From the sequence record AP012531: DNA of 63,253 bases. One strand, written 5' to 3'. The position numbers were made by a program. Each line of letters opens with the position of its first letter. Positions within the stretch are counted from its first letter, which is position 1. Positions 57,001 to 63,000 of this stretch are shown here, one piece after another. This stretch comes from Stx2-converting phage Stx2a_F422.

Positions 57001-60000
57001 AGCAATGCCTTTGTTCGTACGCTGGGGAAAGTTAACCGCTTCCTGGCAACGGTGAACACGTCGTATAACCCGGAATTCCTGGTCAGTAACTTCATCCGTG
57101 ACGTGCAGACGGCGGTGATGAACCTGAAGGCGGAGCAGGGAAGGAGCGACGGTAAACTGAAAGGGCTGGATAACTTATCCGCCCTGGCTGTGGTGAAAGA
57201 CAGCCGTTCTGCCATGTCAGCCGTATACGCCAGTCTGCGTGGTAAAACCCTCACGGGAAAAGGTGCACAGTGGCAGAAGGTGTGGAAAGAGTTTGTTGAG
57301 GACGGAGGGAAAACCGGCTGGTTTAACATGGGTGACCTTGAAGGCCAGCAGAAGGAAATGGATCGCCTTGTCTCACTGGCGAAGGGGGGATGGAAAGGCC
57401 AGAGTATCGGTGCATGGAATTCGTTCCTTAACCTTGTCGAGGATGCCAACGGTGCGGTTGAAAACGCTCTGCGTCTTTCTGCCTATAAGCACGCCCGTGA
57501 TGCCGGTTTGTCACGCCAGCAGGCGGCGTCTCTTGCCAAAAACATGACGGTGAACTTTAACCGTCGTGGTGAGCAGGGGGCGCTGATGAATTCGCTGTAC
57601 ATGTTCGCCAACGCCAGCATTCAGGGAACGGCAAATCTGGTGAGAACGCTCGGACATCTTAATGGTGAGGGACCTTTACTGGAGCGCCTTCGCTGGAAGA
57701 ATCTGAATGTTCCGCAGAAAATCGCGCTTGCCGCTGTGGGAGCAGGTTATCTGCTTGGCTCGCTTAACCGCAGCGTGGCGGGTGAGGATGATGACGGGGT
57801 TAACTGGTATGACAAGGTGCCGTCTCATGTGAAAGAGCGTAACCTCGTCATTATGAAATCGGTGTTCGGGGGCAAGGCCGGAGAGTACTGGAGTATTCCT
57901 CTGCCTTACGGGTACAACGTTTTCTTCCTGCTCGGGCATACTGCTGAAGGTGTGGCGGCGGGTGACCTGACGGCGTCCCGTGCTGCCGGTAATGTTGTTG
58001 GTGGTGTGCTTGGTGCATTCAGCCCGATTGGCAGTGAGACGTCGGAAACACTGTCCGGGGCATTGCTGAAAAATGCAGCGCCGACCATTCTGCGTCCGTT
58101 TGCGAACCTTGCCATGAATGAAAACTTCATGGGGGCGCAGATTTACCAGGAGAACATGCCGTTTGGTACACCAAAACCTGACAGCCAGCTGGGAAGACGT
58201 TCAACGCCAGAAGCGTACAAGGCGTTTGCATCCTGGCTGAATGCGTTCTCAGGTGGCAGCCAGTACCGTCCCGGCGCGGTGGATATCACACCGGAATCGC
58301 TGAAATTCTGGATTGACTATATCTCCGGAGGGACAGGGCGCTTCATTTCCAAAACCACGGATGCGGCGGTGAAATCGCTGAATGGTATTGATATACCGGA
58401 ACAGCAGGTGCCCTTCCTGGGGAAAATTTCGGGGGAGGTGATGCCGTATGCAGACCAGCAGAAGATGTACGACCGGATGACAGAGATTGCGCAGTATCAC
58501 GCAGAGCTGAAGAGTCTGACCGGTGCAGAAAGAACGGCGTTCATTGACGAGAACAACGGAAAATTGTCGATGAACGGGCTTATGCAGGATACCCGGAAGA
58601 GACTGAAGGATTTGCGTAAACAGCGTGATGCCATTTACGCCGACAGTACTCTCAGTCTGGCGCAACAGTCGGCGATGGTGAAATCGGTAGAGCGGGATAT
58701 GAAAATTGCCGTGGATCGGTTTAACCGCGAGTACAACAAAAAAGTGGGAGTGGATTAACAGAAATGGCCCCGTACGGAAGTGCGGGGCTGATTAAGAAAT
58801 AAACACTCATTGACCTGTAATAACCGGAGCTATTAACATATAGTCAGAAGAGCATTTCATGTGATACAGAGAGCCGATTTATGTTTAATGAAGAAAAAGT
58901 TGCGCAAATGGCAGCGTATTTGCTGAAAAAGCATGGCGGATCTATGCGTTTCATTAAGCTGAAGCAGCAACGGTAATGGCGAATAGCATTTATGAGCAAA
59001 ATAATCTTGATATGTTATTAGGCGATCTGATGTAACCGGGATGATGTTCACCCCTTATCGCCGGGGAACAATACCGGCAATCAGAATTGCGGATGGAACT
59101 ATTCAGGCCCACGATGATATCGATGAGGAGTTTTTTCAGCCAGTATTGGATGGCTTTCTTATATCCAAATATACGCCATTTGACATCCTCCACGCCCTGA
59201 AGGACGGGGTTTTACAGCGCACCGGATAAGATTCGGTGTTTTGTTGAAAAATACTGTGATAACAAACAGAAAACCCGTCAGTAAGACGGGCTTAGCAAGC
59301 TGGGACGGTTACTTTAATAATTTCAGTGCCTTTACATCCACTTCAACACTGCTCAGGTCTTTATCAATTTCACCCTCAATTCTTACTTTGTCTTTCGGAG
59401 AAACATTCTGACCGGCCCATATGCTGTCATCGATATCCGTGACAATTGTCCCGCTATTGTCACGAAACTCATAACGTTCATCACCCACTTTTTTAACGAT
59501 GCTCCCTTCAAGGATAACCCATGCATCATCCTTCAGTTCTTTTGCCTGCGCTACTGTTGAACGCTCTGCTTCAGGCCCTTGGAAACCGCCCTGCTGTGCA
59601 AAAGCGCCAAAAGACACACCAGAAATAAGTGCTGCAATCAATACCTTTTTCATTCATAGTCCTCTTTCAGAGATGAACATTCAAACAGCATTTTCAGTAT
59701 GGTAAAGCGCGGGTGCGTTGAGGATGCCTGACACATCAGAGGTGGCGGGAGATTACTCCCCCGCTTGGTCTCTTACTTCTCAGATTCGTAGTCTACGAAG
59801 ACAGCGACCTCCGTCTGACCGGTTCGGATTCGCACCTCGCAGAGGTCTTTCCTCGTTACCAGTGCCGTCACTATGACGGTTAAACAGATGACGATCAGGG
59901 CGATTAACATCGCCTTTTGCTGCTTCATAGCCTGCTTCTCCTTGCCTTTCGGCACGTAAGAGGCTAACCTACATGTGTTCAGCATGGATTGAGCCTCAGA

Positions 60001-63000
60001 TTAATGTTAAGCGTCTTGCCGGACGCGTAATGTTAACTGGGGCTTTTCTCTATCTGCCGTTGGTGTTCATGCCCGAGGCAGATAGCCTCAAGCACCCGCA
60101 GCAATTCTACTTAACTCTCCTTTTCCCGCAAACCGTTTTTATCTCCAGCGACAAATCGAATACACAACCAGCACCACCGCCATTACTGTTCCTACATTTG
60201 CGAATGCTTCAGGCCAGGTCATTGATTCACCTTCTGCTCAATATTTTTAAGGTCATTTTCCGCATACAGTATTGCAGTTCTTGCTGCCCGCAACCGTGCT
60301 TTGGTGTTCTTTTCTTCACGCTCGAGGCTGGCAACAGATTCTCGGAGCTGATCGTGTCTGTTATGAAGCTGTCTAATCTCTCTCACCACAGCCTCACCAT
60401 CGTTCGCACACCGCAGAACATACTGAAAAGGGTCCACAACACATCCGCACTGCAAGCACAGGATAACGTGATCCTGTTCATGAACCTCAATGGCCCGATG
60501 CTTACAGCTCTGTTGTGTGTAGTTTTTTCTGCCAGTTACTGTAATGTTCAGCAGCTTCTCTTCATCGCGCTTTGGCTGCACCAGTGTGATGATATTATCG
60601 CCTTCATTTTCCATCAGTTCACCTCCTGCGGCGGTTCTGGTAGCGGCATCCAGTGTGACGGTTTCCACGACGCACCAGGAATTATCCACCCATCATTAGC
60701 GTCAGGATGCCCCGGGATGTAAGTCGCCCACTTCATTCGCCAGTCACCTTTCCTGTCAAACTCCACGGCAACAAGAACGGCTGTTTTGGTATCCGGCATT
60801 CGCTCACTACAACTTATCCAACCATCCGGAGTTACCGGAGAGTTGCCAGACAGCGCATTCTGCAACCGTTCCAGCTTAACGTATTCCTGAACCCTGTTTC
60901 CGTCGCACGCCTGAAGCCATTGCTCAGCCTTTTGCGCATCAGTGTGAAAGGCACAAGTGCGACCGTCATCAAATTGCATTTCGTAGAGGTTAGCAATCTG
61001 TTCAAACTGCGTGTGTGGCAACTTGTAAGTTTGGCTTACGAGTTCGGCTTCCAGTTCTGCTATGCGCTTCTCTGATGCTTCAAGTAACGCCTGCTTATCG
61101 CGTAGCGCTTCTTCCAGTTCAGCAACATGGCATTCACTATCAATAAGGTTGTTCTCTGCTGCTCCCAGCTCAACTCTCAGCTTCCCAACCGTAAGCGCAA
61201 TCTCCTCGTTCTCCTGGTCGCGGCGTTTGATGTATTGCTGGTTTCTTTCCCGTTCATCCAGCAGTTCCAGCACGGTAGCCGGGTTAGCCTCTGCTATGAA
61301 TTCAGCGTTGCATAAGCCTGAGCATCTGTTTCAACCAGGCAGTTAACATGACATTCTGCAATCACGCCACCGGGTTCTCCTTTCCATTTTTGGCAAACAA
61401 AAACTCCTGTTAAATTGCCGTGCTGGTTAACAGATGTATGCCCTACGATGTAGCTTCCTTTAGTTGCTTTCTCTGCCTTTTCACGCAGTGCCTGATAGTC
61501 AATCTTGCTCATTTTTCTCTTCACTCCGGTATACAAGGATTACTACGCCCCCTCTGCTAATTGCGCGAGCTGGATCCCCTGGTTCCATGCCGTCAATACC
61601 GAAGGCTTCGAAAAATGCATCTATTGCCTTTTGGCGTTGCTCCTGCTTACGGCGTTTATTCCATTTTTTCATGAACAACAGTGACAGCCATCGTCCGCTG
61701 CAGAACATGATGTAGAAATAACCAAGGAGCGCTAGGCCGGTGTTCAGGGCTGTATCGATCGTTATCGTGGTGTTGATGTTCACTTCACACCTCTCTGTTT
61801 GTTGATAAGTTCAATATCCTGCTGGCAACTGGCGCAAGCTCTGCATCCACGAACAGCCAGGCGTCGCCGCTCATCTATCGGATCGCCACACTCGCAACAA
61901 TGAGTAGCAGATGGGGCATTACTATCGGATTTGTATTTTTGCAGGGAGAGATTGCGCTGCAATTCTTCGATTTCAGCGGCGTTGTCGATGATATCTGCCA
62001 TTTTCCTTTCCTTCAGGCATGAAAAAAGGAGCCGAAGCTCCTTTGGTTTTAGAATTCGAATTGCCTTGCCCGCAGGCTTTTCAGCATTGGTCTGGCCCGC
62101 TGAACTACGAAACTCGACTGGTCAAGCCGTGCCGCCTCTCTCAGTAGCACATCTCTGTTCTTCGTCACCATGTAGATGGTCTCAAACGCAATGTCATACA
62201 GCTTGTTCGTGTATGAGGAGTTCAGCTCTTTCATGATCGGATACAGGTGTTTGCTGAGGTCCTGGGCTTTTTCCATCCAGAGTTGCATGTAGCAGAGGAG
62301 GATGATTTCCTCGTCTGTGAATTGTTGCTGTGGTTCTGCTTGTGCCGACTGCATGTTGCGAAGTTTCTTTTCGCACTCGATGAAGTATCTGCGTATCTGT
62401 CGGCCTTTTTCGTTACGCTCTACCATCGCCGTTTCTTTGGCTGTATCGAGGGTAAGGTGGTAGTCTTTTTTCCCTCGCCCATAACCTATTTCCCGTTTCT
62501 GGGAAATAGCTATATAGTCCTGATTTTCAACGAATCCGTACTCTTCAATACGTTCTGTAATCCACGATGCAAAGCGTTTACCTACTCCAAGAAAAGTATG
62601 TAAATCACGGGCATTAACGAGAAGAGTGGTTTCGTTGGCGATAGTGCCGTTGAATACGGGGATGCGTTGACTGGTCATGATGACCTCCTTATTTGTTTAG
62701 TTTATAACCGCCAGTTAGTAGCTGGCGGTCGGGTGTCAACTGAGCCAAATAAGAAGCTCTGGGCATATTCCCCTTGCGGGTGTTGTATTACGCCTCTCCA
62801 CCCGACCTTTGTACGGATGTAACTATGCCAAATTGCAGGCATAAAAAAGCCGCAAAGCTATCGGGTGCGGAGACCGCTTATTTGTTCAGTGCGGTCAGTA
62901 TGCGATAGCTCTGGAGGATTTGTCAATCAGCGGAATATTGATGAACGGGTAACGGTAAATGCCTCATCCAGAAAATTAACGCAAATTCGCATCGCAAACT

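What the first reader, a model, noticed from the sequence alone, without database searches (positions are those of the whole stretch)
59773..60218. Canonical hok toxin gene with a long upstream leader
A 51-aa HokD/Gef-like product with an AAGGAG RBS is preceded by about 230 nt of non-coding sequence where the overlapping regulatory frame and antisense RNA of hok/sok-type loci would lie. It appears intact rather than IS-disrupted.
Basis: partly seen in the sequence, partly recalled or inferred. Interest (0 to 1): 0.5.

Follow-up and report, generated by a model that had tools for sequence, protein, structure and literature searches.

The report
Known hokW-sokW toxin-antitoxin of Stx2 phage
This is the already described and experimentally tested hokW/mokW/sokW type I toxin-antitoxin locus of the Shiga-toxin-2 prophage Sp5/933W of E. 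coli O157:H7, present here intact and base-for-base identical, so the finding is correct but ordinary.

Summary
On the minus strand, 59773-59928 encodes a 51-aa Hok/Gef toxin (Pfam E=4e-23) behind an AAGGAG ribosome-binding site. It lies within an in-frame 70-aa mok-type frame (59773-59985). Rfam's sok/hok-leader model matches 59923-60097 at 113.5 bits (threshold 59).

The locus is not new. The 651 bp around it are 100% identical to prophage Sp5 of O157:H7 Sakai and to phage 933W. The 933W GenBank record annotates hokW, mokW and a 71-nt SokW antisense RNA, which falls at window 59977-60047 (+). Every primer and probe from Takada et al. 2021 (PMC8621323) maps without mismatch. That paper reports HokW toxicity, neutralisation by sokW from its own promoter, partial RNase III and Hfq dependence, induction-dependent HokW production, and a twofold gain in phage release.

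I add three in-silico points:
- A 5'-3' fold-back (tac 60085-60099 with fbi 59707-59724) is conserved in relatives.
- The transcribed leader is about 170 nt, not 230.

Verdict: already known, low interest.

The parts
59773..59928 (-). hokW coding sequence: a 51-aa Hok/Gef membrane toxin (coordinates include the stop codon)
   Evidence: ORF list and sequence. Pfam PF01848 E=4.3e-23. PHROG 251 'MokW-like host killing' E=1e-32. Annotated as hokW in AF125520 at the same position. Primers YO-357 and YO-369, used for the toxicity clone, map exactly to its two ends.
59773..59985 (-). mokW: a 70-codon frame that starts 57 nt upstream of hokW, runs in frame with it, and has its own GAGG Shine-Dalgarno (59997-59994)
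   Evidence: ORF list. 74% identical to K-12 MokC over 69 aa. Annotated as mokW in AF125520 and as 'MokC' ECs_1245 in Sakai. A regulatory role is inferred from R1 mok and was not tested for hokW.
59938..59943 (-). hokW Shine-Dalgarno AAGGAG, 9 nt before the ATG
   Evidence: Read from the sequence. It lies in the last helix of the Rfam consensus structure.
59977..60047 (+). sokW antisense RNA (71 nt). It is complementary to the mok ribosome-binding site and start codon. It has an unpaired 5' tail followed by a long hairpin and a GGGGCUUUUCU tail.
   Evidence: misc_RNA sokW in AF125520, converted to window coordinates. Fold of -31.4 kcal/mol, z=-5.1. Northern probe YO-592 for sokW maps to 59977-60006.
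59942..59970 (+). sokW promoter: -35 TTGCCT (59942-59947), 17-nt spacer, -10 TAACCT (59965-59970)
   Evidence: Mutagenic primer YO-421 differs from the window at 4 bases, changing CTAACCTA to CGAGCCGG at 59964-59971. This is the 'pro-less' mutant reported to lose antitoxin activity. The -35 is inferred from spacing. The consensus scan did not flag this promoter.
59929..60099 (-). hokW mRNA 5' leader of about 170 nt. It includes the 5'-terminal tac element (about 60085-60099) and the SokW target region.
   Evidence: Rfam RF01794 matches 59923-60097 at 113.5 bits, E=1.5e-26, full model length. It aligns with the K-12 hokC leader from GCGGGTGCTTGAGG onward, with an 18-nt insertion at the hairpin apex. 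The 5' end is inferred by homology and is not mapped.
60104..60132 (-). Inferred hokW promoter: -10 TAGAAT (60109-60104) and a weak -35 near 60126-60132
   Evidence: The -10 aligns with TATAAT of K-12 hokC at the same distance from the conserved GCGGGTGC 5' end. It was not flagged by the consensus scan. Inferred only.
59707..59724 (-). fbi (fold-back inhibition) element: 3' sequence UCCUCAACGCACCCGCGC, complementary to the 5' tac
   Evidence: The MFE fold of 60099-59700 pairs the first ~15 nt with this element. The pairing is lost when the last 40 nt are removed. Duplex energy is -27.2 kcal/mol; 0 of 1000 shuffles and 8 of 744 window chunks reach it. The same pairing sits 45-49 nt after the stop in relatives, with one compensatory change in Pantoea.
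59745..59764 (-). 3'-UTR stem-loop GCGGGGGAGUAAUCUCCCGC between the hokW stop and fbi
   Evidence: An 8-bp stem in both folds. Its function was not tested.

Best explanation
This is the hokW-mokW-sokW type I toxin-antitoxin module of the Stx2a prophage Sp5/933W.

Inferred by homology to R1 hok/sok and K-12 hokC: a weak promoter (-10 at 60109-60104) makes a stable hokW mRNA of roughly 390-400 nt on the minus strand. Its 5' end (tac) pairs with its 3' end (fbi, 59707-59724), which keeps the full-length RNA translationally inert. Slow 3' trimming releases that lock. Blocking mok translation blocks hok translation, because the AAGGAG site of hok is closed and depends on ribosomes arriving through mok.

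Reported in PMC8621323 for the Sp5 locus, which is identical over the whole cloned fragment: the 71-nt SokW RNA is made from its own promoter on the plus strand (59977-60047) and protects the cell. Protection depends in part on RNase III and Hfq. After prophage induction (RecA-dependent), SokW disappears. [quoted passage not shown]

Shown by sequence: SokW is complementary to the mok ribosome-binding site and start codon.
For: - Toxin family: Pfam HOK_GEF E=4e-23; 92% identical to HokD and 80% to HokC.
- Leader RNA: Rfam RF01794 at 113.5 bits against a gathering score of 59, full length.
- Identity with the known locus: 651 bp are 100% identical to Sakai Sp5, EDL933 and phage 933W.
- Prior annotation: mokW, hokW and sokW are annotated in AF125520 at exactly these positions.
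- Link to the experiments: the genomic parts of 15 hokW-sokW primers and probes from the paper's Table 2 map with 0 mismatches inside 59622-60228. The mutagenic primer defines the sokW -10.
- Experimental results.
- Fold-back: tac-fbi pairing, conserved in relatives.
- Antisense RNA: SokW hairpin, z=-5.1.
Against: - Nothing contradicts the assignment.
- The hokW mRNA ends, 3' processing, tac-fbi locking and mok-hok coupling have not been tested for hokW. The paper does not examine mokW. It leaves open whether the shorter RNAs it saw are processed forms.
- RNase III and Hfq are only partly required.
- The simple consensus scan found no sigma-70 promoter or terminator in 59600-60300. Both promoters are therefore non-consensus. 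The hokW promoter is inferred from alignment only.
- NCBIfam Hok models score below their curated cutoffs: 53.6 against 73.
Confidence: 0.93

Rival explanations
1. The module is functional, but its main biological role is stabilisation of the prophage by post-segregational killing of cells that lose it. This is how the 933W GenBank record describes it, and it is the role hok/sok has on plasmid R1. Help with lysis would be secondary.
For: The AF125520 annotation notes read 'prophage maintenance'. The architecture is the same as the plasmid system: a stable, locked mRNA plus an antisense RNA reported to disappear quickly. Closely related full-length loci occur on E. coli plasmids at 87-88% identity.
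Against: PMC8621323 tested induction and found a positive effect on phage release. It saw no growth effect of the deletion under normal conditions. Prophage loss or curing was not measured, so this role is untested rather than excluded.
Confidence: 0.2
2. The module mainly acts as an abortive-infection defence against superinfecting lytic phages, as reported for R1 hok/sok against T4. Host transcription shut-off would remove SokW and HokW would kill the infected cell.
For: The paper's discussion cites inhibition of T4 by R1 hok/sok. The locus sits among accessory genes at the prophage end, next to a YgiW/BOF gene and Ea22/DUF551 genes.
Against: There is no test for hokW. I did not scan PADLOC. 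The only measured phenotype is pro-phage, not anti-phage.
Confidence: 0.1
3. The locus is an inactive relic, like K-12 hokD/relF, which has lost its leader, or the 'RelF inactive antibacterial toxin' label in some phage records.
For: Several phage records label the identical gene 'RelF inactive antibacterial toxin protein'. K-12 hokD and three Qin-type loci lack the tac leader.
Against: Every regulatory element is present here. The identical sequence is reported to be toxic and to be regulated by sokW.
Confidence: 0.02

Closest known systems
hokW-mokW-sokW of phage 933W / Sakai prophage Sp5 (GenBank AF125520; Takada et al. 2021, PMC8621323)
   Same: Everything. It is 100% identical over 59650-60300. 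The annotated coordinates coincide. All published primers and probes map exactly. The phage context is the same: integrase, three tRNAs, stx2A, and a right-hand 25 kb that is 100% identical to Stx-converting phages.
   Different: Nothing detected at the locus.
hok/mok/sok (parB) of plasmid R1
   Same: Same family of toxin, leader and antisense RNA. The Rfam model matches full length. The sok promoter lies opposite the hok Shine-Dalgarno region. There is 5'-3' tac-fbi pairing. RNase III is involved.
   Different: HokW is only 44% identical to R1 Hok, according to the paper. mokW is in frame with hokW; from my own knowledge of the R1 sequence, R1 mok overlaps hok out of frame. The element is a prophage rather than a plasmid. 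The reported role is help with phage release rather than plasmid maintenance. Hfq contributes partly.
hokC (gef)/mokC/sokC of E. coli K-12
   Same: Toxin 80% identical and Mok 74% identical, with the same in-frame arrangement. The leader is colinear from the GCGGGTGCTTGAGG 5' end.
   Different: In K-12, IS186 is annotated ending 20 bp 3' of the hokC stop, and the fbi match there is replaced by a weaker one. hokW is uninterrupted. It carries an extra 18 nt at the apex of the SokW hairpin.
hokD (relF) of the K-12 Qin prophage
   Same: The closest toxin sequence, 92% identical. It is also prophage-borne.
   Different: hokD sits 71 nt after relE, and the Qin-type loci lack the tac leader motif. 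No mok or sok is annotated there. hokW has the complete regulatory set.

Membership tests
hok/sok type I toxin-antitoxin family | Hok/Gef toxin of about 50 aa with an N-terminal hydrophobic helix and a conserved C-terminal part | tested here: met
   Pfam PF01848, 81 bits against a cutoff of 22, covering model positions 1-42 of 42. 92% and 80% identical to HokD and HokC. NCBIfam Hok subfamily models hit but fall below their curated cutoffs.
hok/sok type I toxin-antitoxin family | Overlapping mok reading frame with its own ribosome-binding site upstream of hok | tested here: met
   70-codon frame 59773-59985 with GAGG 8 nt before its ATG. 74% identical to MokC. Its coupling function cannot be tested here.
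hok/sok type I toxin-antitoxin family | Cis-encoded antisense Sok RNA, with its own promoter, covering the mok translation start | tested here: met
   Annotated sokW corresponds to 59977-60047 (+). Stable hairpin fold. The published probe and the promoter mutation map here exactly.
hok/sok type I toxin-antitoxin family | Conserved structured mRNA leader | tested here: met
   Rfam RF01794 at 113.5 bits against a gathering score of 59, model positions 1-157 of 157.
hok/sok type I toxin-antitoxin family | Long-range pairing of the mRNA 5' end (tac) with its 3' end (fbi) | tested here: met
   Predicted in the MFE fold and lost on 3' truncation. Duplex energy -27.2 kcal/mol, beyond all 1000 shuffles. 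Found at the same place in most relatives that carry the tac motif, with one compensatory change in Pantoea L044. In silico only.
hok/sok type I toxin-antitoxin family | Toxin kills or arrests cells, and the antisense RNA neutralises it | not testable with these tools
   Reported in PMC8621323 for the Sp5 locus. The cloned fragments map to the window with 0 primer mismatches and the locus is 100% identical to Sakai.
hok/sok type I toxin-antitoxin family | Activation by slow 3' processing of the full-length mRNA | not testable with these tools
   The paper saw two shorter RNAs but did not establish what they are.
hokW-sokW of Sp5/933W (same locus) | Sequence identity and the same genomic position in an Stx2 lambdoid prophage | tested here: met
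   100% identity over 651 bp to NC_002695.2 within the annotated Sp5 feature and to AF125520. stx2A, tRNAs and integrase are present in the window.

The most novel reading that the evidence does not exclude
How prophage induction removes SokW is unsolved. The anatomy allows one untested answer.

hokW lies on the same strand as the integrase (29-1339, minus) and as the accessory genes at the right prophage end. After excision and circularisation, an N-antiterminated leftward pL transcript that crosses attP would run through the antirepressor, Ea22/DUF551 and L0139 genes and the 27-codon ORF. It would continue straight into hokW, head-on against the sokW promoter. This could silence sokW by transcriptional interference and also supply extra hokW template.

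That would tie the toxin switch to excision. It would explain the dependence on RecA and induction. No terminator-like site was found between the upstream genes and hokW, but that is weak evidence.
Probability: 0.12. Interest if true: 0.4.

Novelty: already known. Interest (0 to 1): 0.08.

Why it matters
It matters little as a discovery. The locus has been annotated as hokW/mokW/sokW in the public 933W GenBank record, and its function was tested in 2021. Its biological interest is already documented: a type I toxin-antitoxin module carried by a Shiga-toxin phage that helps phage release after induction. What remains open for specialists is how induction removes SokW. It is also untested whether the classical mok coupling and the tac-fbi/3'-processing switch operate in hokW. 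The small conserved 27-codon ORF just upstream is a minor annotation gap.

Tried and rejected
- The consensus promoter/terminator scan of 59600-60300 found nothing on either strand. It therefore gave no support for either promoter or for the SokW terminator. Those rest on the published promoter mutation and on alignment to hokC.
- The other Rfam hits in 59000-61000 (ceN48, sR2, HgcC) are far below their gathering scores, and I dismissed them as chance.
- Pfam, PHROGs and NCBIfam gave no family for the 27-aa peptide.
- The inactive-relic reading, as in K-12 hokD, was rejected because all regulatory parts are present and published toxicity data exist.
- My motif-based search for tac in Photorhabdus loci failed ('no tac motif'). 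Their leaders are probably too divergent for the pattern I used. I did not pursue them.
- I did not build a covariance model, predict a structure, or run the large protein-database searches, because the identity of the locus was already settled.
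Full report
**What is in the sequence**

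The region 59773-60218 carries a hok gene on the minus strand. Its ATG is at 59928-59926 and its stop codon at 59775-59773. The product is 51 aa, MKQQKAMLIALIVICLTVIVTALVTRKDLCEVRIRTGQTEVAVFVDYESEK. AAGGAG lies at 59943-59938, 9 nt before the ATG.

The same reading frame is open upstream to an ATG at 59985. This gives a 70-aa mok-type frame preceded by GAGG at 59997-59994.

The 51-aa product matches Pfam HOK_GEF at E=4.3e-23, 81 bits against a cutoff of 22. It matches PHROG 251 'MokW-like host killing' at E=1e-32. It is 92% identical to K-12 HokD and 80% to HokC/Gef. The 70-aa frame is 74% identical to K-12 MokC.

Rfam family RF01794 ('sok') is modelled in the sense of the hok mRNA and ends at the hok AUG. 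It matches 59923-60097 (-) over its full length at 113.5 bits, against a gathering score of 59, with E=1.5e-26.

**Identity of the locus**

The segment 59650-60300 is 100% identical to E. coli O157:H7 Sakai inside the annotated prophage Sp5, where the gene is ECs_1245. It is also 100% identical to EDL933 and many other Shiga-toxin-producing strains. Among phages it is 100% identical to 933W, Stx2 converting phage I and others.

The GenBank record of phage 933W (AF125520) annotates mokW, hokW and a misc_RNA 'SokW antisense RNA'. Converted to window coordinates, these are 59773-59985 (-), 59773-59928 (-) and 59977-60047 (+).

The window itself is an Sp5-type Stx2a prophage:
- integrase-like ORF at 29-1339 (-)
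- three tRNA genes at 22433-22684
- stx2A at 22775-23734
- a right-hand 25 kb that is 100% identical to Stx-converting phages

**Published experiments on this exact sequence**

Takada et al. 2021 (PMC8621323) studied hokW-sokW of Sp5. I mapped the genomic parts of their primers onto the window. Fifteen map with 0 mismatches inside 59622-60228.

The mutagenic primer YO-421 differs at four bases. It converts CTAACCTA at 59964-59971 (+) to CGAGCCGG. This identifies TAACCT (59965-59970) as the sokW -10 box.

The Northern probe for sokW (YO-592) has the minus-strand sequence of 59977-60006. The probe for hokW mRNA (YO-597) has the plus-strand sequence of 59940-59969. These fix the transcript strands.

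The paper reports the following:
- Arabinose-induced HokW stops growth.
- The fragment 59622-60228 with its native sokW is not toxic.
- It becomes toxic when the sokW -10 is mutated.
- sokW supplied in trans (fragment 59925-60079) partly rescues growth.
- Protection is partly lost in RNase III and Hfq mutants.
- After mitomycin C, SokW disappears while hokW mRNA persists.
- HokW-3FLAG then appears in the inner membrane in a RecA-dependent way, about an hour before the endolysin.
- Deleting the locus delays growth arrest and halves the number of released phages.

**Anatomy I could add in silico**

*The hokW 5' end and promoter.* Alignment with the K-12 hokC locus shows the leaders are colinear from GCGGGTGCTTGAGG (60099 downward). 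The hokC TATAAT box aligns with TAGAAT at 60109-60104. I therefore infer a hokW 5' end near 60097-60099 and a transcribed leader of about 170 nt. hokW carries 18 extra nucleotides at the apex of the hairpin that forms the body of SokW.

*SokW.* The 74-nt stretch 59977-60050 (+), which contains the 71-nt SokW, folds into an unpaired 9-nt 5' tail followed by a long hairpin and a GGGGCUUUUCU tail. The energy is -31.4 kcal/mol with z=-5.1.

*The 5'-3' fold-back.* Folding 60099-59700 (-) pairs the first ~15 nt with UCCUCAACGCACCCGCGC at 59724-59707. This is the tac-fbi fold-back known from R1 hok mRNA. Removing the last 40 nt abolishes it, and the 5' end then folds locally.
- The duplex energy is -27.2 kcal/mol.
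- None of 1000 shuffles of the downstream 170 nt reach it.
- Eight of 744 window chunks of 170 nt reach it.
- Of 39 hok loci analysed from other genomes, 28 carried the tac motif. In 20 of those, the best pairing lies 45-49 nt after the stop codon.
- A Pantoea locus carries a compensatory change: GGGCGC pairs with GCGCCC instead of GGGUGC with GCACCC.
- Qin-type hokD loci lack the leader.
- Several hokC-type loci, including those most like K-12 hokC, lack this 45-49-nt match; their best pairing lies elsewhere.

K-12 hokC has IS186 annotated ending 20 bp 3' of its stop codon.

**Mechanism**

*Reported by experiment for this sequence:* toxicity of HokW; protection by SokW from its own promoter; partial dependence on RNase III and Hfq; induction-dependent loss of SokW; appearance of HokW in the inner membrane; a gain in phage release.

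*Shown by sequence:* SokW is fully complementary to the mok ribosome-binding site and start codon.

*Inferred from R1 hok/sok and hokC, untested for hokW:* the mRNA ends; the tac-fbi lock and its release by 3' trimming; dependence of hok translation on mok translation. The paper does not address mokW. It leaves open the nature of the two shorter RNAs it saw, and it leaves open how induction removes SokW.

- The gene is on the minus strand.
- The distance from the hok ATG to the upstream annotated gene (stop at 60219) is 290 nt. It is 233 nt only from the mok ATG.
- The stretch is not simply non-coding. It holds the mok extension, the ~170-nt leader, the promoter and, at 60139-60222 (-), a 27-codon ORF.
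- The system continues 3' of the given coordinates, to about 59705.

**The 27-codon ORF**

The ORF encodes MTWPEAFANVGTVMAVVLVVYSICRWR. Its ATG overlaps the stop of the upstream gene (ATGA).

The ORF is not annotated in the Sakai, 933W or Stx2 II records. However, tblastn finds it in 93 phage records at identities down to 54%, and 90 of them cover at least 80% of the peptide.

It is intact in BP-4795 and ArgO145, in different gene contexts without hok.

All 80 IMG/VR loci retrieved keep 27 codons and the ATGA overlap. There are 29 distinct nucleotide versions. Variable columns fall 8, 7 and 18 at codon positions 1, 2 and 3. One peptide is encoded by 17 different nucleotide sequences.

No Pfam, PHROG or NCBIfam family covers it. 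A close variant exists in protein collections as 'bacteriophage protein' or 'hypothetical protein'. It clusters with 121-aa Shigella 'DUF551' proteins.

This looks like a real, small, hydrophobic phage protein, probably membrane-embedded. It is a side observation. It is not specifically tied to hok: 26 of the 80 loci have no hok leader within 400 nt downstream.

**Novelty and score**

The locus is already known. It is annotated under the names hokW/mokW/sokW in the 933W record and was characterised functionally in 2021. Nothing at the locus differs from the published sequence. Interest is low.

The most novel reading still open concerns the SokW shut-off. After excision, a leftward pL transcript crossing attP would run on the minus strand through the right-end accessory genes into hokW, head-on against the sokW promoter. 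This could silence sokW by interference. The gene orientation allows it, and no terminator was predicted in between. It is untested. The reported stability of the hokW mRNA band after mitomycin C gives it no support.

Noticed in passing
window 60139-60222 (-): A conserved, mostly unannotated 27-codon ORF (MTWPEAFANVGTVMAVVLVVYSICRWR, hydrophobic core). Its ATG overlaps the stop of the upstream gene (ATGA) and it ends just before the hokW promoter. It is kept at 27 codons in 80 of 80 IMG/VR loci, with mostly third-position variation. It also occurs in phages BP-4795 and ArgO145 without hok. No Pfam, PHROG or NCBIfam family covers it.
   Followed up: partly
protein cluster seen (P0002-P0015): The 27-aa peptide variant ending ...RWG clusters at 90% identity with 121-aa Shigella/E. 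coli proteins named 'DUF551 domain-containing protein'. This suggests that in some genomes the small ORF is fused to the upstream DUF551 gene, or is mis-called that way.
   Followed up: no
window 59309-59653 (-): The gene immediately downstream of hokW encodes a signal-peptide-bearing YgiW/YdeI-type bacterial OB-fold (BOF) protein (Pfam PF04076, E=5e-33; PHROG 1230, function unknown). It looks like a moron-type accessory gene of the Stx phage.
   Followed up: no
window 60219-60689 (-) and 60614-61273 (-): The upstream genes are L0139 (PHROG 1621, function unknown) and an Ea22-like/DUF551 protein. The two longest ORFs overlap by 76 nt. The Sakai annotation instead uses a shorter L0139 start, so that ECs_1246 ends up abutting the upstream gene.
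   Followed up: no
window 50338-58758 (+): A very long ORF of 2806 aa ends about 1 kb before the hok locus. It corresponds to L0134 of 933W and ECs_1242 of Sakai, both annotated as hypothetical. One RefSeq phage record lists an 'LPD5 domain-containing protein' among the features under the 25-kb match, which may be this ORF.
   Followed up: no
window 9378-10268 (+): A 296-aa ORF ([14 protein letters not shown]...) looks, from my memory of such sequences, like an IS3-family transposase inside the early region of the prophage. It was not checked with any tool.
   Followed up: no
loci L008, L020, L028, L057: Near-identical E. coli-type hok genes appear in assemblies labelled Veillonella parvula MAG, Acinetobacter idrijaensis, Xanthomonas pisi and a Candidatus Scatousia MAG. 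Three of the four are on short contigs of 275-2995 bp, and the Veillonella one is a 22.9-kb MAG scaffold. These are most likely contamination or mis-binning rather than true hosts.
   Followed up: no
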